A stretch of DNA of 64,000 nt, taken from assembly GCA_964464395.1 (NCBI GenBank), contig CAYXFY010000001.1, forward strand, positions 77,918-141,917, read 5' to 3'. Origin of the DNA: an uncultured Nitrososphaera sp. GTDB taxonomy: Archaea; Thermoproteota; Nitrososphaeria; Nitrososphaerales; Nitrososphaeraceae. Positions within the stretch are counted from its first letter, which is position 1, and the number at the start of each line of letters is the position of its first letter. The notes under the pieces were generated by a model. It ran no database searches, was not told the origin of the DNA, and was given only the letters and a program-made list of their open reading frames with translations. Position numbers and translations under genes: made by a program. Positions 26,613 through 63,820 of this stretch are shown here, piece by piece.

Positions 26613-27758
26613 GTGCAGATGCGAGCCGGAAGGCCGGGGCACATTTTCGCCTGCACGGGCAAGACTGAGCGTGAGTGCCTTGACCGCATGCTCTTTGCAT
26701 CAGGCAAGCTGTACGGCGACCGCGTGCTTGCGGTCAAAAAGGGCGACCCGCTGTTCCTGATAAATCTGGACACCGACACTATACACGGCGGGTTTTTCGC
26801 AAAATCAGACGGCAGAAAGGACATCGAGCCTGAAGCCTGGAAGGGTCGGTACCCGTACCAGGTGAGAGTCATGAAAAACGGCGCCGTGTATTCGACAAAG
26901 GGCGCAAAGAAGATGCTTGCCAAAATGGGCCTTTCGTGGCGGGACACGCTCGAGCCTGCTGCTGCAAGCGCTCTTGCGTCATATATCAAAAACCCCGACA
27001 GCACGATAGCCTCGTTCAAGAAAGAGGACGACAAACCCCGCCTCGAGTCAACGACGCTGTGGGACTATCCACGGCAGAGCTACGGCAAGACGCCCAAGGG
27101 CGACAACAAGTACGCCGGCGTCACGCCGGCGTTTGCCATCTACAACATGATAAAACGCTATACGGAACCCGGAGATCTTGTCCTCGACCCTATGGCCGGG
27201 AGCGGCACCACACTTGACGTCTGCAAAGAGGAGGGCAGGCGGTGCAAGGCGTTTGACGTAAACCCCGTAAGGCCCGAGATAGTCCGAAACGACGCGCGGA
27301 GAATCCCGCTGCAGGACGAGAGCGTTGACATGGTCTTTATCGACTCGCCGTACGGCGACAACATCGACTACAACGACCAGCCGGCCAATATCGGCATGAT
27401 CTCGGCGGAGACCGACGAGTTCTACGACGAGCTGGAAAAAGTGATGGTAGAGTGCAGACGCGTGATGAAGCCCGGCAAGGTGATAGGCTGGGTCATCGGC
27501 GACCAGTGGGTGAAAAAAAAATTCACGCCTGTTGGGTTTATGGTGTACGAGCGGCTTGCCCGGCACTTTGAGCCTGTAGACATCATCAGTCTTGTCAGGC
27601 GCGGCCAGACGTCCAACACCGGCGTCTGGCATTCGCGGGCCCTGCGCTTCAACTTTTACCTCCGGGGATTCAAATACCTGTTCATAATGAGAAAGCCCGA
27701 CGGCAGCGCGCCGGCAAAGAAGGGTAAGGTCAGCTGGACGCAGTACGCCAGACAGTAA
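26613..27758 (+). CDS. DCD/PUA-like domain fused to a SAM-dependent amino (N6/N4 or N2) methyltransferase
   Basis: 381 aa. N-terminus GHIFACTGKTERECLDRMLFASG...PLFLINLDTDTIHGGFFAKSDG...EAWKGRYPYQVRV matches DCD-domain motifs. C-terminal half has motif I VLDPMAGSGTT and motif IV FIDSPYG. Confidence 0.8.
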   Translation: MQMRAGRPGHIFACTGKTERECLDRMLFASGKLYGDRVLAVKKGDPLFLINLDTDTIHGGFFAKSDGRKDIEPEAWKGRYPYQVRVMKNGAVYSTKGAKKMLAKMGLSWRDTLEPAAASALASYIKNPDSTIASFKKEDDKPRLESTTLWDYPRQSYGKTPKGDNKYAGVTPAFAIYNMIKRYTEPGDLVLDPMAGSGTTLDVCKEEGRRCKAFDVNPVRPEIVRNDARRIPLQDESVDMVFIDSPYGDNIDYNDQPANIGMISAETDEFYDELEKVMVECRRVMKPGKVIGWVIGDQWVKKKFTPVGFMVYERLARHFEPVDIISLVRRGQTSNTGVWHSRALRFNFYLRGFKYLFIMRKPDGSAPAKKGKVSWTQYARQ

Positions 27759-46132: not shown

Positions 46133-47386
46133 CTACTCCCTCTCCCTAAGGTGCTTCAGCCATTAAATAGTAACCCTTGCAAACAGACACTCACGCTCAA
46201 CTACAAATTCCGTCTCCGTCCAACCAGAGAACAGGAATTCATATTGGAGCAGACGCTGGACGGGTGCAGGTGGGTGTACAACTACTTTCTGGACAAGAAC
46301 ATGTCAGAGTATGACATGAACTATGCTCTCACTGAATTGAAAGAGCAGCATCCCTGGCTCAGAAACTACTATGGCAAGATGCTCCAGATGGTAGGAAAAC
46401 AAGTTGCAGCGGCAAGAAAAGCACTATCTCGCATGAAAAGGAATGGTTGTAAGACGGGTAGGCTGTCATACAAGTACCGTGATGATTTCAATGCTTTTAC
46501 CTACAATCAGACAGGTTTTAGAATCGAGGGAAACGTACTGGTACTTTCCAAAATAGGTCGCATAAAGGCAGTAATGCACAGGTGGCCTGTCCACGTCAAA
46601 CAAGTGATAATATGCAGAAAGAATGGAAGGTGGTATGCCGTTATGGCGTGCGAAATATTTCGCAAGCAGCACTCGACCATTGTCTATCACAGGCCAGTCG
46701 GCATAGATGTCGGTATCACCAAGTTTGCCCATGACTCCGACAATCATGTTGTAGAAAACCCACAGTTTCTTACAAAGATGTTCAAACCAATTAAAAAAGC
46801 TCATCGCAGATTGTCAAAGAGAGAGGTGAGGAGTAGTAACCACATTAAAGCCAAGCATATGCTTGCCCGGCTGTACGAAAGAATCAGCAACAAGCGTCGC
46901 GACTTTTTGCACAAGACATCAACGTACTACTGTAGCCGCTACGACCTGATATTCTTGGAGCGGCTGAGGATATTGAACATGGCAAGGAACCACAATCTTG
47001 CACGCAAGATGTTGGACGCAAGCTGGTCCACGTTCAGCATGATGTGTAACTACAAGGCCAACAGGATGGTGGAAGTAGAGCCGGCGTACTCTTCAATCAA
47101 TTGTTCAAGGTGCGGCAACCGCATCTCCAAGTCGCTTGCAATACGTACTCACTCTTGTCCAAGATGTGGCGTGGTCATTGACAGGGACTACAACTCTGCC
47201 ATCAATCACTTGCAGAAGGGTTTGGAGCTTTTGCAACTACCGGTGGAGCGCCGGGAAGTCACGCCTGTAGAGACTCCAATGGAGTCATTGAAGCAGGAAG
47301 TCTATACAGCAATGTACAGATTACCGGAGAAACGGGGCAACCCTGTCCGGGAAGCCAACGCCTTTCAAAGCTTGGTAGTTCACAAC
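46133..47386 (+). mobile_element. IS200/IS605-family element, tnpB-only, family 1 copy 2
   Basis: Left end CTCCCTCTCCCTAAGGTGCTTCAGCCATTAAATAG. Right end ...CTTGGTAGTTCACAAC. Both ends recur in the mini-element at 49735-49846. Confidence 0.75.
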
Positions 47387-47404
47387 GGTTTACCCCTAGC
47401 TTGA
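46151..47404 (+). CDS. tnpB: TnpB (IS605 OrfB-family RuvC nuclease)
   Basis: 417 aa, roughly 60 percent identical by eye to the 14241-15413 copy. VGIDVGITKF, LIFLERLRILNM, IDRDYNSAINH; CSRC...CPRC. No ATG near the 5' end, so the start codon is uncertain. Confidence 0.9.
   Translation: MLQPLNSNPCKQTLTLNYKFRLRPTREQEFILEQTLDGCRWVYNYFLDKNMSEYDMNYALTELKEQHPWLRNYYGKMLQMVGKQVAAARKALSRMKRNGCKTGRLSYKYRDDFNAFTYNQTGFRIEGNVLVLSKIGRIKAVMHRWPVHVKQVIICRKNGRWYAVMACEIFRKQHSTIVYHRPVGIDVGITKFAHDSDNHVVENPQFLTKMFKPIKKAHRRLSKREVRSSNHIKAKHMLARLYERISNKRRDFLHKTSTYYCSRYDLIFLERLRILNMARNHNLARKMLDASWSTFSMMCNYKANRMVEVEPAYSSINCSRCGNRISKSLAIRTHSCPRCGVVIDRDYNSAINHLQKGLELLQLPVERREVTPVETPMESLKQEVYTAMYRLPEKRGNPVREANAFQSLVVHNGLPLA
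47225..47404 (+). ncRNA. Putative TnpB guide-RNA (omega/reRNA) scaffold overlapping the tnpB 3' end
   Basis: Hairpins CCGGTGGAGCGCCGG and CCGGA...TCCGG are conserved at the nucleotide level across copies even where the protein frame differs. Placement follows the known TnpB omega-RNA layout. Confidence 0.45.
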
Positions 47405-47909: not shown

Positions 47910-48075
47910 TTAAAGCGTTAAATGAAGGTTCTGCCGAGTCTTCGGATGACGCAGACCCAACTTGCTTGCATCGACTCTGAGGATTAGTGGTTCCTTCTCC
48001 ACGTTCCCCCTCATCGCTTCACCTGCAAGTCCTTTTGAACTGGCGAACCGGGCCAGCCCTTTGATGGACAGGTTC
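47910..48075 (-). ncRNA. Putative guide-RNA scaffold of the family 2 element
   Basis: The ~150-nt block overlapping the tnpB 3' end is conserved at the nucleotide level in the tnpB-less copy at 58762-58905. Confidence 0.4.
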
Positions 48076-49127
48076 ATGGCCGCAACCACATCCCTGTCCA
48101 TCCACCTCTTGCACTCGGCACAGTACAGCTGACGCCTGTCCACTTGGGTTATCTTCTTCCCGCATCGTGGACAGAGCTGTGATGTGCCTCTAGTTTCCTT
48201 GACTGATAACTGGATAGTCGGCACTCCTTCCCACATTGCTTTGTATTCTATCTGCCGTTTTATCTCGGCAAAAGACCATCCGTTGAGCTTGAATCGATGG
48301 TTCCTGCCCTGACCATTGCCCCTTCTGTACAACCTACGTATATGGGTGATATCTTCGAATACTACCGCCGATTTATCCTGCTTAGCTTTTTGAACAACTG
48401 TTTTTGAAACATGATGTAATAGCTGGCTTATCCTGTTTCTGCGGCGTTGGCCGTACTTGGATGCAAGTCTCTTTCGTATTCTCACGTCATTGCGCTTAAA
48501 CGATCTTATTATTGACCGATTATTCTCTGCAATGCTAGCTGCCTTTGCCAAGTCGTATTGAACTACCTTCTCTGTGGTTCCCACGGTCAGATTTCTTAAA
48601 TTCCTATCTATCCCTTCGATATTGGTATATTCTATTTCCGGAGCCTCCTTAGAAATGCAGATACCGACTGAGTCGATAGTTAACGTGATAGAGCGGACTT
48701 TTAGTGAGGAGTTTGACAAGATTGTTTTTACATGACTGTCGAGTGGGATGTCGAAGTATTGTCTGTCACCAAGAGGCACTTTTAACATTCCATTCGTTAT
48801 CTTGAAACCTATGTATGCTTGCAGCAATGGTTTCCTAGCATATGGTTGTCTTGGCTGCAGTCCTCGTTGGAGGGATTTTTTTCTGTTAGCAAGTATGCAC
48901 GCCGCATGAGAGATCGCGCATATCTTGTAAATTGAATAGACTTTGTATCTTTCAAGGTGGCGATAACACAGTTTGGTCAGAGCTATTCTGGTAGAAACGT
49001 CATTCTGTAGCCCAATTCTGATGCAATCGTTCGCCATTTGCCTGAATACCTCTGTTAGTTGAAGTAGTTCTGGTGCTGGTTGGTAAAGTTGCTTTACAGC
49101 CTTGATCGCGATATTGGTTTCAGGCAA
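47910..49127 (-). CDS. tnpB: TnpB-like RuvC nuclease, second divergent family
   Basis: 405 aa. EGIDRNLRNL, VVFEDITHIRR, MDRDVVAAMNL; zinc ribbon CPRC...CAEC. Confidence 0.88.
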   Translation of the reverse strand: MPETNIAIKAVKQLYQPAPELLQLTEVFRQMANDCIRIGLQNDVSTRIALTKLCYRHLERYKVYSIYKICAISHAACILANRKKSLQRGLQPRQPYARKPLLQAYIGFKITNGMLKVPLGDRQYFDIPLDSHVKTILSNSSLKVRSITLTIDSVGICISKEAPEIEYTNIEGIDRNLRNLTVGTTEKVVQYDLAKAASIAENNRSIIRSFKRNDVRIRKRLASKYGQRRRNRISQLLHHVSKTVVQKAKQDKSAVVFEDITHIRRLYRRGNGQGRNHRFKLNGWSFAEIKRQIEYKAMWEGVPTIQLSVKETRGTSQLCPRCGKKITQVDRRQLYCAECKRWMDRDVVAAMNLSIKGLARFASSKGLAGEAMRGNVEKEPLILRVDASKLGLRHPKTRQNLHLTL

Positions 49128-51893: not shown

Positions 51894-52051
51894 TATCACA
51901 CAATTTCTCTAGCTTTTCTAGGCAAGAGAATAGAAATTTGAGCGTAAACAACAGTTAAGTATTACAATATACAAGAGCTTGAAAGTTAAGCAATACTAAA
52001 ATGTGACCAGTGAAGTTCTAATAATAAACTTCCCGAGAAAGTGCGTTAATC

Positions 52052-53269
52052 ATGGGCGATATCAAGTTCTTAAAGTGCCGAGAGTGCGGCAAAGAGTACG
52101 AGCCGCAGTTCCGGTATGTTTGTGAAGAGTGTTTTGGTCCGCTCGACGTCCACTACTCCGAGCCAAAGGTGGACAGGCACACATTTGAGTCGAGGGAAAA
52201 GACCTACTGGCGCTATTTCGAGCTCCTGCCTGTCAAGGATAAGAGCAACATTGTCAGCCTGCACGCAGGCCTGACGCCTCTGCAGTATGCAGACAAGCTT
52301 GGCGCGCGCCTTGGGCTGAAAAACGTCTTCATCAAGAACGATTCTGTCAACCCCACATTTTCGTTTAAAGACAGGCCTGCCGGCGTGGCGGTGTCAAGGG
52401 CAAAAGAAACCGGACTGAAAGCAGTCGGCTGCGCGTCGACCGGCAACCTTGCGTCTGCGACAGCCGCGCATGCTGCAAAGGCGGGATTGCCATGTTACAT
52501 TTTTGCGCCATCTGACATAGAGCACGCGAAAATCGCACAGGCGCTCTCGTACGGCGCCGAGTTTGTCGCTGTTGAGGGCACCTACGACGACGCCAACAGG
52601 ATAGCGTCCATCATAGGCGACTCGAAGGGCTACGGCATCGTCAACATCAACATGAGGCCCTACTACGTGGAAGGATCAAAGACGCTGGCGTACGAGGTCG
52701 CAGAACAATTAGGGTGGCAGGTGCCTGACAGGCTGATAATTCCTGTGGGCTCTGGCGCGATGCTCAACGCGATCTGTAAGGGATTTGAAGAATTACATCA
52801 ACTCGGCCTGATAGACAGCGTCAAGAACCTGAAAATAGTCGCGGCGCAGCCGCACGGGTGCGCGCCCATAGTCGACGCGTTCAAGAAAGGATCGGACGAA
52901 GTGATACCAGTAGAGCGTCCGGAGACTATTGCAAAGAGCCTTGCAATAGGCGACCCCGGCGACGGGCTTTACGTTCTCAAGCGCCTGAAGCAGTATAGCG
53001 GCATCGCTGAAGAGGTGAACGATGAAGAGATAACAGACGGAATAATGCTGCTGTCGCAGACAGAAGGGATATTCACAGAGCCTGCAGGCGGTGTTTCAGT
53101 CGGCGTCCTGAAAAAGCTCGTCGACGAGGGCAAGATAGAGAAAGACGAAAGAGTCGTCTGCTACGTGACAGGCAACGGGTTGAAGGCCACAGAAGCGATT
53201 ATAGGCCTGCTGCCAAAACTCAATGCCGTCAAGCCTGACGCGGCGGTCGTGTCAGCGATGATAAAGTGA
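52052..53269 (+). CDS. thrC: Threonine synthase-family PLP enzyme with N-terminal zinc ribbon
   Basis: 405 aa. CRECGKEY...CEECFGPLDV ribbon and PLP-lysine motif FSFKDRPA. Confidence 0.85.
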   Translation: MGDIKFLKCRECGKEYEPQFRYVCEECFGPLDVHYSEPKVDRHTFESREKTYWRYFELLPVKDKSNIVSLHAGLTPLQYADKLGARLGLKNVFIKNDSVNPTFSFKDRPAGVAVSRAKETGLKAVGCASTGNLASATAAHAAKAGLPCYIFAPSDIEHAKIAQALSYGAEFVAVEGTYDDANRIASIIGDSKGYGIVNINMRPYYVEGSKTLAYEVAEQLGWQVPDRLIIPVGSGAMLNAICKGFEELHQLGLIDSVKNLKIVAAQPHGCAPIVDAFKKGSDEVIPVERPETIAKSLAIGDPGDGLYVLKRLKQYSGIAEEVNDEEITDGIMLLSQTEGIFTEPAGGVSVGVLKKLVDEGKIEKDERVVCYVTGNGLKATEAIIGLLPKLNAVKPDAAVVSAMIK

Positions 53270-54600
53270 TAGAGATGGCAAAAGTTGAATTCACTGTACC
53301 TTCGGTATTGAACAAGGGACAGGGCGAGAAAAAGCTCCCGGTGGAGGCCTCCGACCTGCAGGAAGCGTTCAACAAGGTGTCGGAGCAGATGGGCGACGAC
53401 TTTAAGCGGCGCGTCTTTGACCACAACGGCAAGCCTAGGTCGCTTATCAACATCTACGTCAACGGCAAGAACATGAGGTTTTCCGGCGGCATGACGACCG
53501 CGCTCAAGGACGGCGATGCTGTCTACATACTGCCGGCAGTGGCGGGCGGCGCAGATCTCACAAGCGACGAGATCCAGCGGTATTCCAGGCAGCTCATGTT
53601 AGAAGAGATCGGCTTTGAAGGAATGGAAAAGCTTAGAGCAGCTAAAGTGTGCGTCGTCGGCGCAGGCGGGATAGGCAACCCTGTTTTGAACCAGCTCGTC
53701 GGAATGGGCGTCGGCAAGATCCGCGTGGTCGACAGGGACGTGATTGAGATTACAAACCTGCACAGGCAGCACCTCTACACCGACGAGGACATCGGCAAGG
53801 TCAAGGTCGAAGCGGCCGTCGAGCGCCTGCGCAAGATGAATCCGGGAGTAGAGATAGAGCCTGTCCCCACATCGGTGACAAAGTACACGGCAGAAAACAT
53901 CGTCAAGGGATTTGATGTTGTCATCGACGCCCTTGACAGCATAGACGCTCGCTATGCTCTCAACGACGCCTGCATCAAGCACAACATTCCACTGATTTAC
54001 GCAGGGGCAATAGGCGTGACCGGCACCGTGTGCACCATTCTGCCAAACAAGTCGGCTTGCGTGAAATGCAGGTTTCCCGAACTGAAAGAAGACGAGATGC
54101 CGGCGTGCAGCACTGAAGGCGTGCACCCGTCGATCCTGTACCTGGTTGCAGGCGTCGAGGTGTCGGAAGCCGTCAAGCTGATTATCGGAAAGGAACCCAG
54201 CCTGGTGAACACCATATTCCTGATGGATCTGGAGCACCTGACGTTTGAAAAAATCCAGATTGCACGGGCGCCAGAATGTCCTGCGTGCGGGGCTGCGCGC
54301 AAAGACTACAACCTTGTAGCGCAGGAGCTGATAATCGAGGAGCTGTGCGGCAGGGACCGTGGCAAGAGGACGTGGACCATAACACCGACAAACCCCGTGC
54401 CTGTCAACCTTTCTGGCATAAGCAAGAGGGCCGAGACTCTGGGCTACCAGGTGAGGACGCGTGGCAACTTGGGCATCACGGCTACAAACGATAACAGGAT
54501 GTCTGTCAGCTTCCTTTCAAGCGGCGCGGCAACCATAGTCGGCGCCAAAGACGAGAAGGACGCAATCGAGGTCTACAACACGTTTGTCAGCAGCGCCTAG
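53266..54600 (+). CDS. MoaD/ThiS-like ubiquitin-fold domain fused to a ThiF/MoeB-type E1-like adenylyltransferase, with an extra C-terminal domain
   Basis: 444 aa. aa 1-95 end in ...DGDAVYILPAVAGG. The E1 part follows, with RYSRQ, VVGAGGIGN, DRDVIEITNLHRQ, CxxC pairs and PACSTEGV. The last ~90 aa are an unassigned domain. Confidence 0.8.
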   Translation: MIEMAKVEFTVPSVLNKGQGEKKLPVEASDLQEAFNKVSEQMGDDFKRRVFDHNGKPRSLINIYVNGKNMRFSGGMTTALKDGDAVYILPAVAGGADLTSDEIQRYSRQLMLEEIGFEGMEKLRAAKVCVVGAGGIGNPVLNQLVGMGVGKIRVVDRDVIEITNLHRQHLYTDEDIGKVKVEAAVERLRKMNPGVEIEPVPTSVTKYTAENIVKGFDVVIDALDSIDARYALNDACIKHNIPLIYAGAIGVTGTVCTILPNKSACVKCRFPELKEDEMPACSTEGVHPSILYLVAGVEVSEAVKLIIGKEPSLVNTIFLMDLEHLTFEKIQIARAPECPACGAARKDYNLVAQELIIEELCGRDRGKRTWTITPTNPVPVNLSGISKRAETLGYQVRTRGNLGITATNDNRMSVSFLSSGAATIVGAKDEKDAIEVYNTFVSSA

Positions 54601-57600
54601 CCCATGAACTCTGTCAGGCTAGACTGCATCTTCTTTTCTTCCCTGAAAATTAATTTCAGTTCTGTGGCAAGCGAGTCCACGCGGCTTTTCAAATAGTCGT
54701 TAATTTTGTACTCTTGGCAGAAGCCGGTCGCTATGCCTAGGTACTTTTCGACCGCGCCCCTCGTCACGGTCTGCGTTAATTCATTACCACATTCCGTGCA
54801 CTTGCCCACAAGCGGCATGCGTCGGAACTTCTCGCCGCAGTTTGTGCACCTGAACGTCTGCGACGAGTACGAGCGCATGTTCCCCATTATGTCCGGCAAA
54901 ATGTGCGTCGTAAGCACCATGGCCGCTACCTCGTCGGCGTCAACCGCGTTTATCAATTTCGCGGTGTCAAACTGCATCTTTAGCTTCTCGTCCATCGTGT
55001 TCAATGTCGAATACGCGCTCCTCTGTTCCTTCGTGGTCAGGCCGCTTGTCGTGTGGGTAAAGTTGTAGCCGAAAAACTGCGACTCGCTGCCGATGCGGTT
55101 TTTCACTATCTCTATCATGCCGGCTACCTCAGCGGCCTTGGCCTGCTTCCACGTCGCCTCGTAGAACTCTAATGGATACGAGCCTGCGATGTCGACGTTG
55201 TGCGCCTGGCGCTGGACTTCATGTGGGAGCACGGTCGGCTGTATGAGAAGCGGTGCGTCCATGAGCCCGCCTATCTTGTCTGGGAGAAAGTCAAACGAGA
55301 AGTTCAAGAACGCGTCCATGAGGAGCATCACCGAGTCGGCGTCGCCGTCGCAGTCCCGGCGCTTTGCAGAGTGCCATATGGGAGACGCCAGGCACACCTG
55401 CGAATCTGAAAAGCCGATTATTCTGCCCATCACGCCGACAGACGTGTGCGGCGCAAGGCCGACTACCATGTGGCCTATCAGGTCGTCTATCCTGTCGACG
55501 TTGTAAAACGGCTCGCACTCGTACAGCCTTGTCAGCTCGTCGTCGATGAATTTCGCGGTGTTGACAAGGTGTCTTGCAGAATCGCGCGGTATGACCACGT
55601 CCTGCATCATCAACTCGATCAGCTGGTCAGGAGAAACAAACTCGCGGCCCTGAAAGTCGCGGGTGTAGCCCAGCTCCCTCAATTTGTCGACGCTTGCGCC
55701 TATCCAGGCCGGCCTAAAGTGCGTTAGTGGTTCATTGGTGGCGTCAAAGCGTATAGTGCCGTCTTTGAACGCATATAGGCTGTGCTTCTGCCGCAATATC
55801 CCTTTTTCCAGAGGCTCGACGGCCCTGTTGCGGCTCATCATCGATTTCACTCCTTTGAGCGGCTCCTGTGCCTTTGCGCCGACTTTTTTCTGCGCGGCCT
55901 CTAGCGCGTCTTTGAGTGGGAAGTTTGTCGTGCTAAACGTCTTGCCCTCCTTGCCGCAGCGCTGGCAGCGCTCGCCCTCTTCGACCTCGCCCCTGCAGAC
56001 CGGGCAGAGGTTGCGAAGCATGGTAGGCGCGCCGCATGATCGGCATTGAGTGCCAAGCGACGGCAGGTTGCACGCATCGCAGTAGCGGTTTGCTATCTCA
56101 GCGTAGACCGAACCCTCTGCTGCCGCCTTGATGATGTCCCTCGTCGCCCCGCCCTTGGTGCCTATCGGAAACAGCACGTGCACGGGAGGCTTCATCTTGC
56201 GCTCGGCTGCTTTTTCCGGCCTGCCAACCCTGACTGCGACCGATGACGCGAACTTGGGCAGGACGGTTATCCCGGACATTTTGGTGACCAGCTCTATTGC
56301 GGTCTCGGCCTGCACCGGCTCGCCTGCAAGCAGAATGGAAAGCGATGTTGCTTGGTCTGTGTCAAGCATTATGTTGTCGCCTGAAACAGAGTGGGTTGCG
56401 CCCAGCTTTTCCAGGACCTCCTTTACGGCCGGGTCGTTTGGCAGCCTGCCGCCTTTCATGCGCTCTTTTAGGAGCAACAGCTCTTGCGGCGTGACAAGGT
56501 CGAAATAAAACGAATACCTTGGATGCAGCGGGATGTCCAGCTTTTTGCTTGTCTCAAACGCCTCGGCGACGGTCGGGATTGCAAACGGGTTTTCTGCCAG
56601 CTTGACAAGACGTTCTCCGTCCACCTCGATGTCGGATGCTAGTTTCTGTTTCAGCTGGAGCGCCCATATCTCTTCGACATAGCTTGCGGGCGGCAGCTGC
56701 GCGTTGTTTTCCAGAAAGTCGCCGTAGCTGATGAGCATGTCGCCCAGGTACAGGATCTTGGCCACGCGCTGTCGGAGCTTTTCTGCTTGGTCAACGCTTG
56801 TCACTGCAAGAACGCCGCCGTCGTCCATTTTCACTATCGGCGGCTCGATGGTGTCGACGAGCGCTATCGTCGACGCCTTGCCAGGTATGTCCATCTTGAT
56901 CTGCGTGCCGGCCACAATAGCATAGTTGAGAAGCGCCGGGACTGCGGGGTGGATGCCGACTGTCGCAAAGCCGGTGTTGCACGCCCGGCCGTACCGCAGC
57001 CTAAAGCCGCCGGCCTTTTTCACCATGGAAAGCACCGGGCGGCCTGTAATAACTTCCGACATCCTGTGGTGCGCCGCGTCATCGTCGCCGGTCTGAATCG
57101 CGCCTTTCAGCTCTTTGAGCCAGTGCCAGCCGTCCAGCTTCAACGTTTCAACCAATTTCAAGAGTTTCCTGCTCCTGCCTATCAACCCGTCGTTCATGAC
57201 ACGCAACGCGCCTCCGCGCACCCTGTCGGTTGCGATCCTCTTCATGCCCTTGTGTCCCACCACATCGACGGGATCGGTATCCACGCCGTCAAGTTCTACA
57301 GGGAGGCTGGATATGCACTTCACGACATCCTCGTCAAGGACCTTGAACTGGAAGCCCATGACTTCCCTTTCATAAATGCGCAGTTCCTCGACGAACCGGC
57401 CCGTCTCGTCGTCAAACGAATTTGCGATATATGGTGAAAGGCCGGCCACCTTCCTTGCGTGGTCGGCTATGAGCATCGTGAGCGCCGCCTCGGTGCCGCC
57501 TGCGGACCTTATCGGGCCGGCGAATGAGACAGAGAGGTATTGAGAGCCGTCGGCATTGTTCTTTATCGTGACGTCGGATATGCCCTGCAATGGAGCGACT

Positions 57601-57971
57601 GTCACGCCCTCGGTCACCACTGCAAGCGAGACGCGGACCGCGTTGTCAAGGCGCGTCTTTAGGTCGTCAGAACCGTACTCTCCCCGGGCGATTTCCTCTG
57701 CAATTTTTAATGCTGCTTTTTCCTTTGTCGTCTGGCCGAGCAGTGCGCGCAGCCGGTCGGCTATGTCGATGTTGTGCATCTTGGCAACCCTGTCTGACAG
57801 ATCGAACGCTATCTTTGGTTCGACAACGCCGGCGATGTCTATGCCCTTGCGCCGGGCTACGAGCGCGTGCTCATAGTTTTTTTGCACATTTTCCAAGATG
57901 TCATGCTGGTACCGGCGATAATATGCCGGCATGCTGATGTCCGCAAGGCGCGCCTGTCCCTCTGCAAGCAT
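54597..57971 (-). CDS. DNA polymerase D (Pol II) large subunit DP2
   Basis: 1124 aa. Typical DP2 N-terminus (YYRRYQHDILENVQKNYEHA) and Cys-cluster zinc motifs. No intein evident. Confidence 0.92.
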   Translation of the reverse strand: MLAEGQARLADISMPAYYRRYQHDILENVQKNYEHALVARRKGIDIAGVVEPKIAFDLSDRVAKMHNIDIADRLRALLGQTTKEKAALKIAEEIARGEYGSDDLKTRLDNAVRVSLAVVTEGVTVAPLQGISDVTIKNNADGSQYLSVSFAGPIRSAGGTEAALTMLIADHARKVAGLSPYIANSFDDETGRFVEELRIYEREVMGFQFKVLDEDVVKCISSLPVELDGVDTDPVDVVGHKGMKRIATDRVRGGALRVMNDGLIGRSRKLLKLVETLKLDGWHWLKELKGAIQTGDDDAAHHRMSEVITGRPVLSMVKKAGGFRLRYGRACNTGFATVGIHPAVPALLNYAIVAGTQIKMDIPGKASTIALVDTIEPPIVKMDDGGVLAVTSVDQAEKLRQRVAKILYLGDMLISYGDFLENNAQLPPASYVEEIWALQLKQKLASDIEVDGERLVKLAENPFAIPTVAEAFETSKKLDIPLHPRYSFYFDLVTPQELLLLKERMKGGRLPNDPAVKEVLEKLGATHSVSGDNIMLDTDQATSLSILLAGEPVQAETAIELVTKMSGITVLPKFASSVAVRVGRPEKAAERKMKPPVHVLFPIGTKGGATRDIIKAAAEGSVYAEIANRYCDACNLPSLGTQCRSCGAPTMLRNLCPVCRGEVEEGERCQRCGKEGKTFSTTNFPLKDALEAAQKKVGAKAQEPLKGVKSMMSRNRAVEPLEKGILRQKHSLYAFKDGTIRFDATNEPLTHFRPAWIGASVDKLRELGYTRDFQGREFVSPDQLIELMMQDVVIPRDSARHLVNTAKFIDDELTRLYECEPFYNVDRIDDLIGHMVVGLAPHTSVGVMGRIIGFSDSQVCLASPIWHSAKRRDCDGDADSVMLLMDAFLNFSFDFLPDKIGGLMDAPLLIQPTVLPHEVQRQAHNVDIAGSYPLEFYEATWKQAKAAEVAGMIEIVKNRIGSESQFFGYNFTHTTSGLTTKEQRSAYSTLNTMDEKLKMQFDTAKLINAVDADEVAAMVLTTHILPDIMGNMRSYSSQTFRCTNCGEKFRRMPLVGKCTECGNELTQTVTRGAVEKYLGIATGFCQEYKINDYLKSRVDSLATELKLIFREEKKMQSSLTEFMG

Positions 57972-61035: not shown

Positions 61036-62307
61036 ATGACTGTTAAGGCAACCTTAACAAATACGATACTTGGAGAAGAAAGACAGGGGTGCGGGTGCAC
61101 GAGCGATATCGACAACATCTTTGACAGGGCGGCGAGCGGCAAGTCGCTTGTCAAGAACAGGCAGACTTTGACCATCGACTACGTGCCCGACAAACTTCCG
61201 TTCAGGGACGAAGAAGCAAGGGGGCTTGCAGAAACGTTGTCGACTGTTCTGAAAAAAGAGCCGGGGCGGCCGTCCAACCTGCTGTTGTTTGGAAAACCAG
61301 GAACGGGCAAGACCGCGGTAGTAAAATCAGTCGTCGACAGGCTGACAAAAAAAGCGGCCGAGCTTGGCATCGAAATAACAGTCCCGGTGATAAACGCGAA
61401 ACTTGCCAACAGCGCCTACAAGATCCTGTACGAAATAGCCGAGTACATGGGCATCAACAGACAGGAGAAAAAGGTGCACTTTACCGGGCTTTCCATGGGC
61501 GAGGCCACCGACAGGATACTGCAGTTCATACAGAAAAACAGGATGCACGTCATATTGGTGATAGACGAGATAGACTCGCTTGTTGACAGGAACGGCGACG
61601 ACGTGCTCTACTCATTTACCAGAGCAAACGAGAGGATGGCCAAGGGCGGTTTCATCACCCTCATCGGCATATCCAACAGTCTCACCTTCAAGGACAAGCT
61701 GGACCCGCGCGTCAGGAGCAGCCTGTCCGAAGAAGAGATGGTGTTCAACCCGTACGGCGTCGAGCAGCTGCGGAAAATTCTGTCGGAGCGGGCCAAGATA
61801 GCGTTCAATGACGGCGCGATAACAGACGCCGCCATCAACCTATGCGCGGCTATAGCCGGCAGGGAGCACGGAGATGCAAGAAAGGCCATCGATCTTTTGC
61901 GCGTCGCCGCAGAGCTTGCCGAGCGGGCGCACGCCGGCAAGGTGGAAGAAAAGCACGTACGCGCGGCGCAGGAAAAAATAGAGAAGGACACCAACCTAGA
62001 GGTGATAAAAAACGCGACGCTACATGAAAAGCTGGTCATAGTCGCGATAACAAAGTCAAAGAACGGAAACACCGGTGAGGTGTACGAGATCTACTCGTCG
62101 CTGTGCAAGCAGACCGACCACGACCCCCTCACACAGAGGAGGATGACGCAGATAATCAGCAGGATGGACCAGCTGGGGCTGATATCGACCGACATCATCA
62201 ACCAGGGGCGCTACGGCCGGTCGCAAAAGATCAAGGCGACGGTCCCGCTTGCGACGATAAAGGCAGCCCTCAAGGACGACTCTGTTATGTCGGAATTCAT
62301 TGATTAA
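61036..62307 (+). CDS. cdc6: Orc1/Cdc6 replication initiator
   Basis: 423 aa. AAA+ Walker A LLLFGKPGTGKTAV, Walker B VILVIDEID and a C-terminal winged helix. Confidence 0.92.
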   Translation: MTVKATLTNTILGEERQGCGCTSDIDNIFDRAASGKSLVKNRQTLTIDYVPDKLPFRDEEARGLAETLSTVLKKEPGRPSNLLLFGKPGTGKTAVVKSVVDRLTKKAAELGIEITVPVINAKLANSAYKILYEIAEYMGINRQEKKVHFTGLSMGEATDRILQFIQKNRMHVILVIDEIDSLVDRNGDDVLYSFTRANERMAKGGFITLIGISNSLTFKDKLDPRVRSSLSEEEMVFNPYGVEQLRKILSERAKIAFNDGAITDAAINLCAAIAGREHGDARKAIDLLRVAAELAERAHAGKVEEKHVRAAQEKIEKDTNLEVIKNATLHEKLVIVAITKSKNGNTGEVYEIYSSLCKQTDHDPLTQRRMTQIISRMDQLGLISTDIINQGRYGRSQKIKATVPLATIKAALKDDSVMSEFID

Positions 62308-63820
62308 AATCCTTGGTGAACGGCTGCATCGTCGCCAAGTTGACGACTATTGCGATTCCCGGCGACGGCGTTATCCCCATTGTCTGCTGGAACTTTGTCT
62401 GCGCCTGCCACGCCCCCGAGTTTACAACAAGCGTCCCGCGGTAGCTGTCAACGTCTGTCACATGCACGTGGCCGGAGTGCAGTATGTCCGGGACCTCGGT
62501 CATCACCATCATGTCCTCCGACTCGGGCGCAATCGGCGTGCGCTCGCCATAGGTGGGTGAGAGATGACGCGCCCTCAACAACACTTTCATGGCCTCTGCC
62601 GGCCGCTGGTAGCTGAGGCCCGGCGTCGTCGCTATCACATCGTCGAGGCTCTGCCCGTGGAACATCAACACCTTGACCCCGTTGAGGCTTACCATCGCCG
62701 GGTTGCCGAGCACCTCACAGTTTTCAAGATCGTAAAGGCCGCCCGACGTGCTCTTTGGGAAGCCTGGCTGCGGTAGTGCGCGCCTGCCCGGGTCGTGGTT
62801 GCCCGGTATGATGTACGTCTTGATCCGTTTTGGTATTTTCGATAACAGTTTTGTGGCGTGGGCCATCTGGCTTGCCGCGTCCATCATCAAGAGCTCCTTG
62901 TCCTGGTTGGGGAATATCCCTATTCCGTCTATGACGTCACCCCCTATGCAAAGGAAACTGATCCTGTGCGCCACGTCATCGTCAGACGACAGCCAGTCGA
63001 GAAAGCGCAGAAACTCTTGCTCCATGAAATACTTGCTGCCGACGTGCAGGTCGGATATGAGCACGGCGTACGCCTGGGACTTGCTCCTGTTCGGCAGATG
63101 ATCCGGCACGTCCGGCGAAAAGACGCTCTTGACAGACAGCCCCGGCACGCCCTTGGCGTTTTCAAGCTCGAGCATGACCACCTGGTCGAGCGCAAGCATC
63201 GACGCGGCTTTTCGCGCTTCTTCCGTGGCGGCTATCACCGACATTTTGCCCGTGTAGTCGTCTATCTCTAGCTCGACGCCGTTTTTCCTCTGCCGCCTCG
63301 ACATAAGTAATCCTGCGACGACGTGTGTGCCCGCGCTGCCAAGGCTCCTCTCACCCTTGGAGCTGCCGGCGCGCGCATTCTGCTTTACTGCAGATACCTT
63401 GGCTATCCTCCTGCTGTCCGGCCTCTGCGCCAGGATGCGCATCGTCTTTTCAAACCTGCTCTTGAACAGTAGGGAGTAGCCGTCTACGCCCTCGCCTGTG
63501 TTGACGGCAGGCGACGAGTCCATCAACACCTCCGCCTCTTGCTCTACAGGCGCCTCCTCGGCCGGGCCCGCAGGCGCGATCAACCCCTTGACATCATCGA
63601 TGACAATGACGGAACTTCCAGACTTTTTCTGCCTGATTATCTCCTGCACGGCCTTGAGCAGGTCGCCCTGTAGGCCCTTGAGCATCGCAAAAGCGTCCGG
63701 GTGGATCTGGTACCCCTTGCTCGAAGCGTATGAAAGCGCGTTCTTTATCTCACTTTGCAGTACCAAGAAACCGCATACCCTTGCGGGCCGGTCCTTAATT
63801 GCTTTTCTGTGAACCACCAA
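62297..63820 (-). CDS. DNA polymerase D (Pol II) small subunit DP1
   Basis: Calcineurin-like phosphoesterase motifs (ISDLHVGSKYF, GDVIDGIG, IIPGNHD, SGHVH). The track start (TTG at 63820) lies inside the IS right end. A TTG at 63766 is a more plausible start. Confidence 0.88.
   Translation of the reverse strand: MVVHRKAIKDRPARVCGFLVLQSEIKNALSYASSKGYQIHPDAFAMLKGLQGDLLKAVQEIIRQKKSGSSVIVIDDVKGLIAPAGPAEEAPVEQEAEVLMDSSPAVNTGEGVDGYSLLFKSRFEKTMRILAQRPDSRRIAKVSAVKQNARAGSSKGERSLGSAGTHVVAGLLMSRRQRKNGVELEIDDYTGKMSVIAATEEARKAASMLALDQVVMLELENAKGVPGLSVKSVFSPDVPDHLPNRSKSQAYAVLISDLHVGSKYFMEQEFLRFLDWLSSDDDVAHRISFLCIGGDVIDGIGIFPNQDKELLMMDAASQMAHATKLLSKIPKRIKTYIIPGNHDPGRRALPQPGFPKSTSGGLYDLENCEVLGNPAMVSLNGVKVLMFHGQSLDDVIATTPGLSYQRPAEAMKVLLRARHLSPTYGERTPIAPESEDMMVMTEVPDILHSGHVHVTDVDSYRGTLVVNSGAWQAQTKFQQTMGITPSPGIAIVVNLATMQPFTKDFNQ

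What the first reader, a model, noticed from the sequence alone, without database searches (positions are those of the whole stretch)
52052..54600. Threonine-synthase-family gene translationally coupled to a Ubl-E1 fusion: possible protein-thiocarboxylate-dependent sulfur chemistry
Seen:
- The thrC-like ORF stop (53267-53269) overlaps the GTG at 53266 of the next ORF (alternative ATG at 53275).
- That ORF begins with a ~95-aa MoaD/ThiS-like beta-grasp ending in the diagnostic ...LPAVAGG (GG codons at 53545-53550).
- It continues without a stop into a ThiF/MoeB-type E1 domain (GAGGIGN, NLHRQ, CxxC pairs, PACSTEGV cysteine).
Established:
- Free Ubl C-terminal GG is adenylated and thiocarboxylated by such E1s.
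- Ubl thiocarboxylates deliver sulfur to PLP enzymes of the CysM / O-acetylhomoserine sulfhydrylase / ThrC-like class in several bacteria.
Inference:
- The fusion must be cleaved after GG, or act in cis.
- The adjacent PLP enzyme may use the thiocarboxylate, for cysteine/homocysteine-type synthesis, rather than being an ordinary threonine synthase.
- No JAMM protease gene is in the window.
Basis: partly seen in the sequence, partly recalled or inferred. Interest (0 to 1): 0.65.

Follow-up and report, generated by a model that had tools for sequence, protein, structure and literature searches.

The report
MetM-like homocysteine synthase with fused carrier-E1
In this soil ammonia-oxidising archaeon, a gene annotated as threonine synthase most likely makes the methionine precursor homocysteine using sulfur from a small carrier protein, a bacterial pathway described in 2024, and here the carrier is made fused to its own activating enzyme.

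Summary
A 405-aa ThrC-family gene (52052-53269) is followed after 5 nt by a 441-aa ORF (ATG 53275-54600). That ORF reads Ubl(...LPAVAGG)-ThiF/MoeB E1-TBP-like domain. The organism is a Nitrososphaera, and the pair occurs in 80/80 related genomes.

- **Clade:** the PLP enzyme falls (200/200 bootstraps) in a ThrC subfamily distinct from canonical threonine synthases.
- **Bacterial members:** they are followed by a free GG-ending Ubl in 72/80 and 71/80 loci. A SAM-I riboswitch precedes them in 23/33 tested loci, which marks a methionine regulon. This matches the MetM/MetO pathway (O-phosphohomoserine + carrier thiocarboxylate -> homocysteine; Hasebe 2024).
- **Carrier type:** the Ubl domain is CysO-like, not MoaD-like.
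- **Origin of the fusion:** other archaea have the same gene order unfused, so the fusion arose by loss of a stop codon.
- **Prior reports:** the Ubl-E1-TBP fusion in Thaumarchaeota was reported in 2010 and 2024, the latter reading it as MoaD-MoeB.

What may be new is the link to MetM, and the implied need to cleave after GG. No JAMM gene is nearby.

The main gap is that I could not determine whether Nitrososphaera also has a canonical ThrC.

The parts
51953..52005 (+). Conserved upstream block, a putative promoter or operator, 47-99 nt before the ATG of ORF A. It contains a direct repeat AGTTAAGyAwTAC (51953-51965 and 51984-51996).
   Evidence: Alignment of 200 nt upstream in 77 Nitrososphaeraceae loci. 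Positions 51980-52003 are mostly >=90% conserved, while the rest of the spacer is not. Function not tested. No Rfam family matches in the window.
52052..53269 (+). MetM-like (ThrC-family, fold-type II PLP) gene, 405 aa. Predicted Ubl-thiocarboxylate-dependent homocysteine synthase acting on O-phosphohomoserine.
   Evidence: PALP 2e-75. It passes the NCBIfam thrC models, but so do SAM-riboswitch-controlled bacterial orthologues. The LNRY clade has 200/200 bootstrap support, apart from canonical ThrC. Identity is 47-54% to bacterial Ubl-linked or SAM-regulated genes and 38-42% to canonical ThrC.
52076..52132 (+). N-terminal four-cysteine zinc ribbon (CxxC...CxxC, residues 9-27) of the PLP enzyme.
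   Evidence: All four Cys are invariant in 70/70 bacterial Ubl-linked homologues and 21/21 Nitrososphaeraceae. The ribbon is absent from the four solved canonical ThrCs. It is also present in other ThrC subfamilies, so it is not diagnostic.
52361..52375 (+). SFKDR motif holding the PLP-binding lysine (K106).
   Evidence: It aligns with SFKDR of the solved threonine synthases. The next two residues are P-A here, V-V in bacterial MetM-like proteins and G-M in canonical ThrC.
52436..52684 (+). Active-site signature region: STGNL (L133, where canonical ThrC has T88) and NINMRPYYVEGSKT (N200 and R202 in a 2-residue insertion; Y205 where canonical has R160; S209 where canonical has Q164).
   Evidence: Column comparison of 70 Ubl-linked bacterial proteins, 21 Nitrososphaeraceae and 4 solved ThrCs. 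The L-N-R-Y pattern marks 29 (plus about 12 variants) of the 131 ThrC-family sequences scored (125 of the 150 best representatives, the window protein and 5 solved ThrCs).
53275..53550 (+). MetO/CysO-like ubiquitin-fold sulfur-carrier domain (residues 1-92), ending in LPAVAGG.
   Evidence: ThiS PF02597 2.5e-8. Best solved relatives are CysO 3dwg_C at 4e-13 and 4n6e_B at 7e-12, while MoaD proteins reach only 1e-5 to 0.27. It is 31-43% identical over residues 4-92 to the small gene downstream of the ThrC-like gene in 72/80 and 71/80 loci. LPAVAGG is invariant in 77/77.
53551..53574 (+). Junction (ADLTSDEI). Predicted processing site between G92 and A93. This stretch is the native N-terminus of the E1.
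   Evidence: Fixed length of 8 aa in 76/77 fusions. A93 aligns to residue 2 of E. coli MoeB (AELSDQEMLRYNRQ). Unfused archaeal E1s start M-(E/S)LSD..E..RYSRQ. AF2 pLDDT is below 50 over residues 88-113, in an overall poor model.
53575..54300 (+). ThiF/MoeB-type E1 adenylyltransferase domain. It carries the GxGxxG ATP site, two CxxC zinc pairs and a crossover-loop cysteine (C278).
   Evidence: ThiF PF00899 2.5e-77. ThiF 1zfn 3.4e-43 and MoeB 1jw9 2.3e-36. Query C278 aligns with the Cys of ThiF NCRTAGV and MoeB LTCVEAGV, and both CxxC pairs align. No rhodanese domain is present.
54301..54600 (+). C-terminal domain of about 100 aa, TBP-like, function unknown.
   Evidence: Weak PF00352 match at 0.0098. 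NCBIfam PRK12475 (MoeB/ThiF family) covers residues 104-440, so E1 plus this domain is a common architecture. AF2 pLDDT is 68-86 with order beta-beta-alpha-beta4-alpha. The 'Ubl-E1-TBP in Thaumarchaeota' architecture is described in PMC2948915.

Best explanation
The two genes form a methionine-biosynthesis module of the MetM/MetO type in a Nitrososphaera.

ORF A is a MetM-like PLP enzyme. It takes O-phosphohomoserine, eliminates phosphate and adds sulfur from the C-terminal thiocarboxylate of a ubiquitin-fold carrier, giving homocysteine. Release may be direct or via a carrier-homocysteine adduct.

ORF B is translated as a precursor with three parts: the CysO/MetO-like carrier ending in GG, its ThiF/MoeB-type E1, and a TBP-like domain.

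Proposed sequence of events:
1. A protease encoded elsewhere, most likely a JAMM/Prok-JAB hydrolase, cuts between G92 and A93. This frees the carrier with a C-terminal Gly-Gly and an E1 with a native-like N-terminus.
2. The E1 adenylates the carrier.
3. A persulfide donor, not identified here, converts the acyl-adenylate to a thiocarboxylate.
4. The PLP enzyme consumes the thiocarboxylate.

**Shown:** domain identities, clade membership, conserved synteny, the SAM-riboswitch link in bacterial orthologues, the unfused ancestral arrangement, and invariance of the GG tail.

**Inferred:** substrate, product, cleavage, the protease and the sulfur donor.
For: 1. **Clade.** A clusters with all 'LNRY'-type ThrC homologues in 200/200 NJ bootstraps. 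Canonical ThrCs fall apart from this clade (the six short canonical ThrCs group in 192/200).
2. **Carrier link.** In bacterial members of that clade, a homologue of the window's Ubl domain lies immediately downstream in 72/80 loci and 71/80 loci. These homologues are 31-43% identical over the full length and end ...DGDEVxxVPxxAGG.
3. **Methionine link.** A SAM-I riboswitch (RF00162, 63-87 bits against a gathering score of 44.4) sits directly upstream of the ThrC-like gene in 8/11 Acidobacteriota loci, 1 Chloroflexi locus, and 14/16 Actinomycetota loci.
4. **Known pathway.** MetM/MetO, with Mec and MoeZ, converts O-phosphohomoserine to homocysteine in Streptomyces albulus. MetM is 'often misannotated' as threonine synthase (GapMind 2026 preprint). 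The S. albulus metM has an upstream SAM riboswitch, and the cyanobacterial homologue is 51.6% identical with a MetO-like neighbour (PMC12172450).
5. **Carrier type.** The Ubl domain is closest to CysO-type carriers that feed PLP enzymes.
6. **Non-redundancy with ThrC elsewhere.** Two Nitrospirota loci carry MetM-like, Ubl and a canonical ThrC in a row. Cyanobacteria keep a canonical ThrC2 as well.
7. **Gene order.** thrC-like -> Ubl -> E1 is present unfused in other Thaumarchaeota, Bathyarchaeota and Nitrospinota. There the Ubl ends in GG-stop.
8. **JAMM partnership.** Prok-JAB genes lie inside the cluster in 7 loci, including Bathyarchaeota L161, which has all four components.
9. **Not molybdenum cofactor.** N. 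maritimus and C. symbiosum have the same ThrC-like + Ubl-E1 pair. They have no Moco biosynthesis genes, only one E1, and two JAB proteases each (supplement of PMC2948915).
Against: - No experiment bears on the archaeal proteins.
- I could not establish that Nitrososphaera has a separate canonical threonine synthase. PMC7603488 treats the AOA arCOG01434 gene as the threonine synthase.
- The Microcystis member of this clade shows threonine synthase and deaminase activity in vitro. It did not raise methionine in vivo under the conditions used.
- No JAMM, rhodanese or cysteine desulfurase lies in the window or within 10 kb in 80 related genomes.
- 78 of 80 actinobacterial loci lack an adjacent Ubl, so the enzyme family does not always travel with its carrier.
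- I never obtained the sequence of the characterised S. albulus MetM. The link to it rests on published identities and shared architecture.
Confidence: 0.62

Rival explanations
1. ORF A is the organism's genuine, and perhaps only, threonine synthase, or it is bifunctional. In the bifunctional case it makes threonine by default and homocysteine when the thiocarboxylate is supplied. The neighbouring Ubl-E1 would then serve other sulfur-transfer or Ubl-conjugation roles as the cell's single E1.
For: - A passes the NCBIfam equivalog cutoffs for threonine synthase (TIGR00260 at 306 bits against 167; NF006050 at 317 against 303).
- PMC7603488 counts the AOA arCOG01434 gene as the acquisition that gave AOA threonine synthesis.
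- I found no second ThrC homologue in the 64-kb window or in 80 loci of about 20 kb. I could not search whole genomes.
- The Microcystis clade member has ThrC-like kinetics in vitro.
- Marine AOA have only one E1, so that E1 must serve every Ubl in the cell.
Against: - The same NCBIfam thrC model is passed by SAM-riboswitch-regulated bacterial orthologues (237-341 bits), so it does not discriminate.
- A differs from all four solved ThrCs at positions that are invariant among them (T88L, S155N, a 2-residue insertion with Arg, R160Y, Q164S, F134Y, A240S, W249G). At each of these it agrees with the Ubl-linked clade.
- The clade is separated with 200/200 support.
- Where genomes could be checked (Nitrospirota loci, cyanobacteria), a canonical ThrC coexists.
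- Synteny with a CysO-like carrier holds across at least 8 phyla.
Confidence: 0.2
2. ORF B is a MoaD-MoeB fusion for molybdenum-cofactor biosynthesis, as read in the 2024 archaeal fusion survey. Its adjacency to thrC would then be incidental.
For: - PMC11237513 lists a 'MoaD-MoeB' fusion in Thaumarchaeota (61/98 assemblies) under cofactor biosynthesis.
- JGI names for orthologues read 'molybdopterin-synthase adenylyltransferase'.
- Nitrososphaerales do encode Moco genes, and a MoCF_biosynth-domain gene lies at 15497-16306 in the window.
Against: - N. maritimus and C. symbiosum carry the same fusion next to the same ThrC-like gene but have zero MoaA/B/C/E, MoeA and MobA genes.
- The Ubl domain matches CysO-type carriers (4e-13, 7e-12) far better than MoaD proteins (1e-5 to 0.27).
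- Its orthologues sit after SAM-regulated ThrC-like genes in bacteria.
- The E1 may still serve MoaD as a second client in Nitrososphaera.
Confidence: 0.05
3. The fusion is never cleaved. The N-terminal Ubl domain would be a docking or regulatory module on the E1. The PLP enzyme would take sulfur from free sulfide or from another carrier, for example the Cgi121-Ubl fusion protein of Thaumarchaeota.
For: - No JAMM gene lies near the pair in 80 genomes.
- Iyer et al. 2006 noted Ub-like-ThiF fusions that co-occur with a separate ThiS and proposed a non-carrier role for the fused domain.
- Most actinobacterial SAM-regulated homologues have no adjacent carrier.
Against: - The seven C-terminal residues LPAVAGG are invariant in 77/77 fusions that are otherwise 62-89% identical to the window's.
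- The direct orthologues in sister archaeal lineages are free proteins ending in GG-stop.
- The junction reproduces exactly carrier C-terminus plus E1 residue 2.
- Marine AOA have no free-standing Ubl at all but do have two JAB proteases.
- MoaD-MoaE fusions are known to need JAMM cleavage (cited in PMC11237513).
Confidence: 0.1

Closest known systems
MetM/MetO thiocarboxylate pathway of Streptomyces albulus (Hasebe et al. 2024, AEM e01247-24; components MetM, MetO, Mec, MoeZ as summarised in GapMind 2026)
   Same: - A ThrC-homologous PLP enzyme paired with a ThiS/MoaD-fold carrier ending in GG.
- An E1 for activation.
- JAMM genes in the cluster in some relatives.
- Bacterial clade members under SAM-riboswitch control, as reported for S. 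albulus metM.
- Routinely annotated as threonine synthase.
   Different: - The carrier is translated fused to the N-terminus of the E1.
- The E1 carries a TBP-like domain and no rhodanese domain (MoeZ is an E1-rhodanese).
- No JAMM gene is nearby.
- The host is an archaeon with no riboswitch.
- I did not have the S. albulus sequences, so orthology is inferred through cyanobacterial, actinobacterial and acidobacterial members.
CysO-CysM-Mec-MoeZ cysteine pathway of Mycobacterium tuberculosis (structures 3DWG/3DWM)
   Same: - The carrier domain is the closest solved relative (4e-13), with an almost identical tail (DGDSVTILPAVAGG against DGDAVYILPAVAGG).
- A thiocarboxylate is delivered to a fold-type II PLP enzyme acting on an O-phospho amino acid.
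   Different: - The PLP enzyme here belongs to the ThrC family, not the CysK/CysM family.
- Bacterial orthologues are SAM-regulated, which points to homocysteine and not cysteine.
HcyS-HcyF-HcyD-MetY homocysteine pathway of Wolinella succinogenes (from my own knowledge; Krishnamoorthy and Begley 2011)
   Same: - A Ubl thiocarboxylate is the sulfur donor for homocysteine.
- The carrier needs C-terminal processing by a JAMM protease.
   Different: - The PLP enzyme there is an O-acetylhomoserine sulfhydrylase (fold-type I).
- The carrier has only a one-residue extension, not a whole E1.
Ubl-E1-TBP fusion of Thaumarchaeota (Makarova and Koonin 2010, PMC2948915), also reported as 'MoaD-MoeB fusion' (PMC11237513, 2024)
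   Same: It is the same protein family. N. maritimus GI 161529056 (443 aa) and C. symbiosum CENSYa_2046 (458 aa) each lie next to an arCOG01434 ThrC gene.
   Different: Neither paper connected the fusion to the adjacent ThrC-like gene or to methionine synthesis. The 2010 paper found 'no new strong functional links', and the 2024 paper filed the fusion under molybdopterin biosynthesis.
MoaD-MoaE (MoaX) fusions cleaved after GG (M. tuberculosis from my own knowledge; D. radiodurans DR0402 as cited in PMC11237513)
   Same: A sulfur carrier with an internal GG is fused to its partner enzyme, and is thought or shown to need cleavage (by a JAMM protease in D. radiodurans) to become active.
   Different: The partner there is the synthase subunit, not the E1, and the pathway is Moco, not methionine.

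Membership tests
MetM (Ubl-thiocarboxylate-dependent homocysteine synthase, ThrC homologue) | Belongs to the ThrC-family clade that contains the characterised enzyme, distinct from canonical threonine synthases. | tested here: inconclusive
   A sits in the LNRY clade (200/200), separate from canonical ThrC. The S. albulus sequence itself was not available. Its membership of this clade is inferred from the published 51.6% identity to the cyanobacterial member.
MetM (Ubl-thiocarboxylate-dependent homocysteine synthase, ThrC homologue) | Genetic linkage to a ThiS/MoaD-fold carrier ending in Gly-Gly (MetO). | tested here: met
   The Ubl domain begins 5 nt downstream in the window. The pairing holds in 80/80 Nitrososphaeraceae loci, and in 72/80 and 71/80 loci of other phyla.
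MetM (Ubl-thiocarboxylate-dependent homocysteine synthase, ThrC homologue) | Membership of the methionine regulon (SAM riboswitch upstream, as reported for S. albulus). | tested here: inconclusive
   Met for bacterial clade members, with RF00162 upstream in 23/33 tested loci. It does not apply to the archaeal gene: there is no Rfam hit in the window, and the conserved upstream block has unknown function.
MetM (Ubl-thiocarboxylate-dependent homocysteine synthase, ThrC homologue) | Catalyses O-phosphohomoserine + carrier-COSH -> homocysteine. | not testable with these tools
   This needs an enzyme assay.
Canonical threonine synthase (ThrC, EC 4.2.3.1) | Active-site pattern shared by the solved enzymes (Tth numbering T88, S155, N157, R160, Q164, F134, A240, W249). 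| tested here: not met
   A has L, N, R (with a 2-residue insertion), Y, S, Y, S and G at these columns, identical to the Ubl-linked clade. The roles of these residues in phosphate binding come from my memory of the T. thermophilus structures and were not checked here.
Canonical threonine synthase (ThrC, EC 4.2.3.1) | Passes curated family models (TIGR00260, NF006050). | tested here: met
   306 and 317 bits, both above cutoff. The test does not discriminate, because SAM-regulated MetM-like genes also pass TIGR00260.
Canonical threonine synthase (ThrC, EC 4.2.3.1) | Is the only ThrC-family gene of a threonine prototroph. | not tested
   Whole Nitrososphaera genomes could not be searched. Attempts to find a thaumarchaeal canonical ThrC failed.
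CysO/MetO-type sulfur-carrier protein | Beta-grasp ThiS/MoaD fold with a C-terminal Gly-Gly, and closest to carriers that serve PLP enzymes. | tested here: met
   PF02597 2.5e-8. CysO 3dwg_C at 4e-13 and 4n6e_B at 7e-12, against 1e-5 or weaker for MoaD. GG is invariant in 77/77.
CysO/MetO-type sulfur-carrier protein | Free C-terminal carboxylate available for adenylation. | tested here: not met
   In the gene as encoded, GG is followed in frame by 349 residues. A free end would require proteolysis, which was not shown.
ThiF/MoeB-type E1 adenylyltransferase | Rossmann ATP site, two zinc CxxC pairs and a crossover-loop cysteine. | tested here: met
   PF00899 2.5e-77. Alignment to ThiF 1zfn and MoeB 1jw9 shows GxGxxG, both CxxC pairs and the Cys equivalent to that of ThiF NCRTAGV.
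MoaD-MoeB of molybdopterin synthesis | Co-occurs with MoaA, MoaC, MoaE and MoeA. | tested here: not met
   The orthologous fusion is present in N. maritimus and C. symbiosum, which have none of these genes (supplementary table of PMC2948915). This is a literature table and not my own genome search.

The most novel reading that the evidence does not exclude
Ammonia-oxidising archaea may have only this one ThrC-family enzyme and only this one E1. A single PLP enzyme would then partition O-phosphohomoserine between threonine (water as nucleophile) and homocysteine (carrier thiocarboxylate as nucleophile). The Thr/Met branch point would be set by how much carrier is released from the Ubl-E1 precursor by a JAMM protease. 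That would be a proteolytically gated, one-enzyme branch point with no known precedent.
Probability: 0.12. Interest if true: 0.75.

Novelty: new variant of a known kind. Interest (0 to 1): 0.45.

Why it matters
Ammonia-oxidising archaea are among the most abundant nitrifiers in soil and ocean, and they grow on mineral media, so they must make methionine.

If this reading is right, three things follow.
- The gene annotated 'threonine synthase' next to the Ubl-E1 fusion in Nitrososphaera, Nitrosopumilus and Cenarchaeum is their homocysteine synthase. Metabolic reconstructions that count it as ThrC, or that file the fusion under molybdopterin synthesis, need correcting.
- A fusion noted since 2010 gets a concrete function.
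- The system offers a clean case for studying obligatory post-translational release of a sulfur carrier from its own activating enzyme.

The chemistry itself is not new, because MetM/MetO was described in 2024.

Tried and rejected
1. **Rosetta-stone search.** I looked for fusions of this ThrC type with a Ubl among longer homologues. The extensions turned out to be LeuA_dimer, PadR or inositol-phosphatase domains.
2. **Second thaumarchaeal ThrC.** Three attempts failed. The ThrC-LeuA_dimer family is NC10/Methylomirabilota. The Zn-ribbon ThrCs with canonical signature are Thermoplasmata. Cluster look-ups of ten other representatives returned no organism names.
3. **Extending the window.** I tried to extend the window by 10 kb on each side through exact-protein look-ups. 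Four proteins were not on record.
4. **Reaching Streptomyces.** A scan with an actinobacterial representative returned Micromonosporaceae, Frankia and Blastococcus but no Streptomyces within the 80 best loci. The Hasebe 2024 paper is not held.
5. **Structure.** The AlphaFold2 model of the fusion was too poor (mean pLDDT 59.9) to justify a fold search or any statement about geometry at the junction.
6. **Recoding.** I considered programmed frameshifting or an internal stop as a way to make a free carrier. Reading the sequence, neither alternative frame has a stop at or near the GG codons.
7. **Start codon.** I rejected the GTG at 53266 as the start.
8. **Literature.** Searches for thaumarchaeal threonine or homocysteine gene inventories gave nothing decisive.

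Full report
**What is there**

The window comes from a Nitrososphaera, a soil ammonia-oxidising archaeon. The fusion protein's nearest relatives are all Nitrososphaera, and the 80 best genomic matches to the PLP enzyme are all Nitrososphaeraceae.

ORF A (52052-53269, + strand, 405 aa) is a fold-type II PLP enzyme of the threonine-synthase family. It matches PALP at 2e-75 and carries an N-terminal four-cysteine zinc ribbon.

ORF B follows on the same strand. It has three parts:
- a ThiS/MoaD-fold domain ending ...LPAVAGG;
- a ThiF/MoeB E1 domain (PF00899, 2.5e-77);
- a domain of about 100 aa with a weak TBP-like match.

The one correction concerns the start codon. The N-terminus MAKVEF aligns from residue 1 in all related loci, and gene callers give 441 aa. 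The start is therefore ATG 53275, five bases after the TGA of ORF A, and not the GTG that overlaps the stop.

The neighbours are unrelated housekeeping genes:
- near the pair: TnpB transposases, ferredoxin, TiaS, HisI, the PolD subunits, GGGP synthase and Cdc6;
- further away: a riboflavin operon, SHMT, aspartokinase and phosphate transport genes.

No JAMM, rhodanese or cysteine desulfurase lies in the window.

**Is it more than chance?**

In 80 of 80 Nitrososphaeraceae loci the ThrC-like gene is directly followed by a full-length fusion. Across 77 fusions that are 62-89% identical to the window's, LPAVAGG is invariant. The spacer between GG and the E1 motif QRYSRQ is eight residues long in 76 of 77.

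The supplementary tables of Makarova and Koonin (PMC2948915) show the same pair in two marine relatives:
- Nitrosopumilus maritimus: 404-aa arCOG01434 next to a 443-aa Ubl-E1;
- Cenarchaeum symbiosum: CENSYa_2045 next to CENSYa_2046.

**What the PLP enzyme is**

A search of 1.84 billion representative proteins gave 1979 homologues below 1e-30. The nearest outside the family is 57% identical.

I scored 131 ThrC-family sequences for their active-site pattern: 125 of the 150 best representatives, the window protein and 5 solved ThrCs. They split into subfamilies, as read against the four solved bacterial threonine synthases.
- The solved enzymes share T88, S155, N157, R160, Q164, F134, A240 and W249 (T. 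thermophilus numbering).
- The window protein has L, N, R (within a two-residue insertion), Y, S, Y, S and G at these columns.
- The same residues are found in 70 bacterial proteins that have a Ubl gene downstream.

I call this the LNRY subfamily. In a bootstrapped neighbour-joining tree of 63 sequences, all LNRY-type proteins form one clade in 200/200 replicates. That clade includes the window protein, Nitrososphaeraceae, other Thaumarchaeota, Bathyarchaeota and the bacterial members. It is separate from canonical ThrCs and from other zinc-ribbon ThrC subfamilies.

Identity of the window protein to each group:

| Group | Identity (%) |
|---|---|
| Other Thaumarchaeota | 62-63 |
| Bathyarchaeota | 56-62 |
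| Nitrospinota, Aquificota, Cyanobacteria | 52-54 |
| Acidobacteriota, Actinomycetota | 47-50 |
| Canonical ThrCs | 38-42 |

The NCBIfam 'threonine synthase' models that the protein passes do not discriminate, because SAM-regulated bacterial members pass them too.

**What the relatives say about function**

Three lines of context converge.

1. *A carrier gene follows.* In two independent sets of 80 loci from other phyla, a homologue of the window's Ubl domain lies immediately downstream of the LNRY gene in 72 and 71 loci. These homologues are 31-43% identical over residues 4-92 and end ...DGDEVxxVPxxAGG, with zero to five extra residues.

2. *A SAM-I riboswitch precedes the gene.* RF00162, scoring 63-87 bits against a gathering score of 44.4, lies just upstream of the LNRY gene in:
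   - 8/11 Acidobacteriota loci;
   - one Chloroflexi locus;
   - one Actinomycetes MAG;
   - 13/13 cultured-type Actinomycetota (Micromonospora, Actinoplanes, Frankia, Blastococcus and others).

   This places the gene in the methionine regulon.

3. *The literature describes this module.* In Streptomyces albulus, MetM is a ThrC homologue 'often misannotated' as threonine synthase. It uses the thiocarboxylate of the carrier MetO to convert O-phosphohomoserine to homocysteine. Mec (a JAMM protease) and MoeZ (an E1) are the helpers (GapMind 2026 preprint citing Hasebe 2024). The S. albulus metM has an upstream SAM riboswitch. The cyanobacterial homologue is 51.6% identical and has a MetO-like neighbour (PMC12172450).

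In addition, two Nitrospirota loci carry MetM-like, Ubl and a canonical zinc-ribbon-less ThrC in a row. Cyanobacteria keep a canonical ThrC2. In those organisms the LNRY enzyme is therefore not the housekeeping ThrC.

**What the fusion is**

The Ubl domain's best solved relatives are M. tuberculosis CysO (3dwg_C, 4e-13) and an Amycolatopsis ThiS/MoaD-family carrier (4n6e_B, 7e-12). Both have almost the same tail. MoaD proteins score only 1e-5 to 0.27.

The E1 domain aligns with E. coli ThiF (3.4e-43) and MoeB (2.3e-36). The ATP site, both CxxC zinc pairs and the crossover-loop cysteine are conserved. The residue after GG (A93) aligns to residue 2 of MoeB (ADLTSDEIQRYSRQ against AELSDQEMLRYNRQ).

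In other Thaumarchaeota (L164-L166) and in Bathyarchaeota (L161, L163, L167), the gene order is the same but the genes are separate. The carrier there is a 90-93-aa protein ending GG-stop. In L161 and L164 the E1 was read out and starts M-(E/S)LSD..E..RYSRQ with the same TBP-like tail. The L167 E1 instead carries a C-terminal rhodanese-like extension. Nitrospinota show the same order, with a shorter E1.

The Nitrososphaeraceae gene is therefore a head-to-tail fusion of adjacent carrier and E1 genes, created by loss of the stop and start codons.

The architecture is already published. Makarova and Koonin 2010 describe it as 'Ubl-E1-TBP in Thaumarchaeota'. The 2024 archaeal fusion survey reports a 'MoaD-MoeB fusion', present in 61/98 Thaumarchaeota and also in Rokubacteria/NC10. 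Neither paper linked it to the ThrC-like neighbour.

**How it most likely works**

An internal glycine cannot be adenylated. The invariant GG tail, the free GG-ending orthologues and the exact junction all point to proteolytic release of the carrier.

JAMM/Prok-JAB genes lie inside the cluster in seven loci of other lineages. One of these is Bathyarchaeota L161, which has JAMM, MetM-like, carrier and E1-TBP together. N. maritimus and C. symbiosum each have two JAB proteases encoded elsewhere.

The precursor bond GG|A resembles the carrier-amino-acid adduct that JAMM enzymes hydrolyse in the CysO and HcyS systems (my own knowledge). One hydrolase could therefore do both jobs. This is inference.

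The sulfur donor is unknown, because the E1 has no rhodanese domain.

**Why not molybdopterin?**

The two marine AOA in the 2010 tables carry the fusion next to the ThrC-like gene. They have no MoaA/B/C/E, MoeA or MobA genes, no ThiS and no Urm1. They have a single E1. The E1 may nevertheless have other clients, such as the Cgi121-Ubl fusion, or MoaD in Nitrososphaera.

**Main caveat**

I could not search whole Nitrososphaera genomes, so I do not know whether a canonical ThrC exists there. All attempts to find one failed.

PMC7603488 treats the AOA arCOG01434 gene as the threonine synthase. The Microcystis clade member shows threonine synthase and deaminase activity in vitro. A bifunctional or purely ThrC role therefore keeps a real probability.

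The AlphaFold2 model of the fusion was poor (mean pLDDT 59.9) and was not used.

**Verdict**

I did not find stated elsewhere the assignment of the AOA 'ThrC + Ubl-E1' pair to the MetM/MetO pathway, with the carrier made as an E1 fusion that must be cleaved. I rate it a new variant of a known kind, of moderate interest.

Noticed in passing
L162:1991-3500 (Bathyarchaeota MAG JANXET010000006.1): A second kind of internal-GG fusion. A ThiS-fold domain ending ...FIPAVSGG continues in frame, through a linker of about 150 aa, into a CysK/CysM-like PALP domain (Pfam ThiS 1.1e-15, PALP 5e-44). It lies just downstream of the MetM-like gene, and a Prok-JAB homologue is also in the locus.
   Followed up: partly
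window 51953-52005: The spacer before ORF A contains a block conserved in 77 Nitrososphaeraceae genomes. It includes two copies of AGTTAAGyAwTAC spaced 31 nt apart, which could be a promoter plus a regulator site for this operon.
   Followed up: partly
L241-L318 (Micromonospora, Actinoplanes, Frankia, Blastococcus and others): Actinobacterial LNRY-type genes all carry a SAM riboswitch (13/13 tested), but 78/80 have no carrier gene within 5 kb. Their sulfur donor is either encoded elsewhere or is not a Ubl.
   Followed up: partly
P0140 and about 10 other representatives (616-627 aa); NC10/Methylomirabilota: A zinc-ribbon ThrC retaining the canonical Arg is fused to a C-terminal LeuA allosteric (LeuA_dimer) domain. 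Other ThrC homologues carry a C-terminal PadR domain or an N-terminal inositol-monophosphatase domain.
   Followed up: partly
L144:7856-8836 and L158:2186-3256 (Nitrospirota): A canonical, zinc-ribbon-less ThrC gene sits directly after the MetM-like and carrier genes, so one locus holds both users of O-phosphohomoserine.
   Followed up: yes
window 14241-15413 (-), 46151-47404 (+), 47910-49127 (-): Three TnpB/OrfB_IS605-type genes (Cas12f-like TNB domain) lie in 64 kb. Two of them are within 6 kb upstream of the locus studied.
   Followed up: no
window 54597-57971 (-), 61036-62307 (+), 62297-63820 (-): The PolD large subunit, Cdc6/Orc1 and the PolD small subunit cluster just downstream, which suggests that the locus lies near a replication origin.
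   Followed up: no
window 26613-27758 (+): A DNA methylase (N6_N4_Mtase) has an N-terminal match to the 'Development and cell death' domain (PF10539, 1e-16), an unusual combination for an archaeon.
   Followed up: no
window 17452-18876 (-): A 474-aa amino-acid kinase, probably aspartokinase, which catalyses the first step towards both threonine and methionine. It lies 33 kb from the locus next to a class IV aminotransferase.
   Followed up: no
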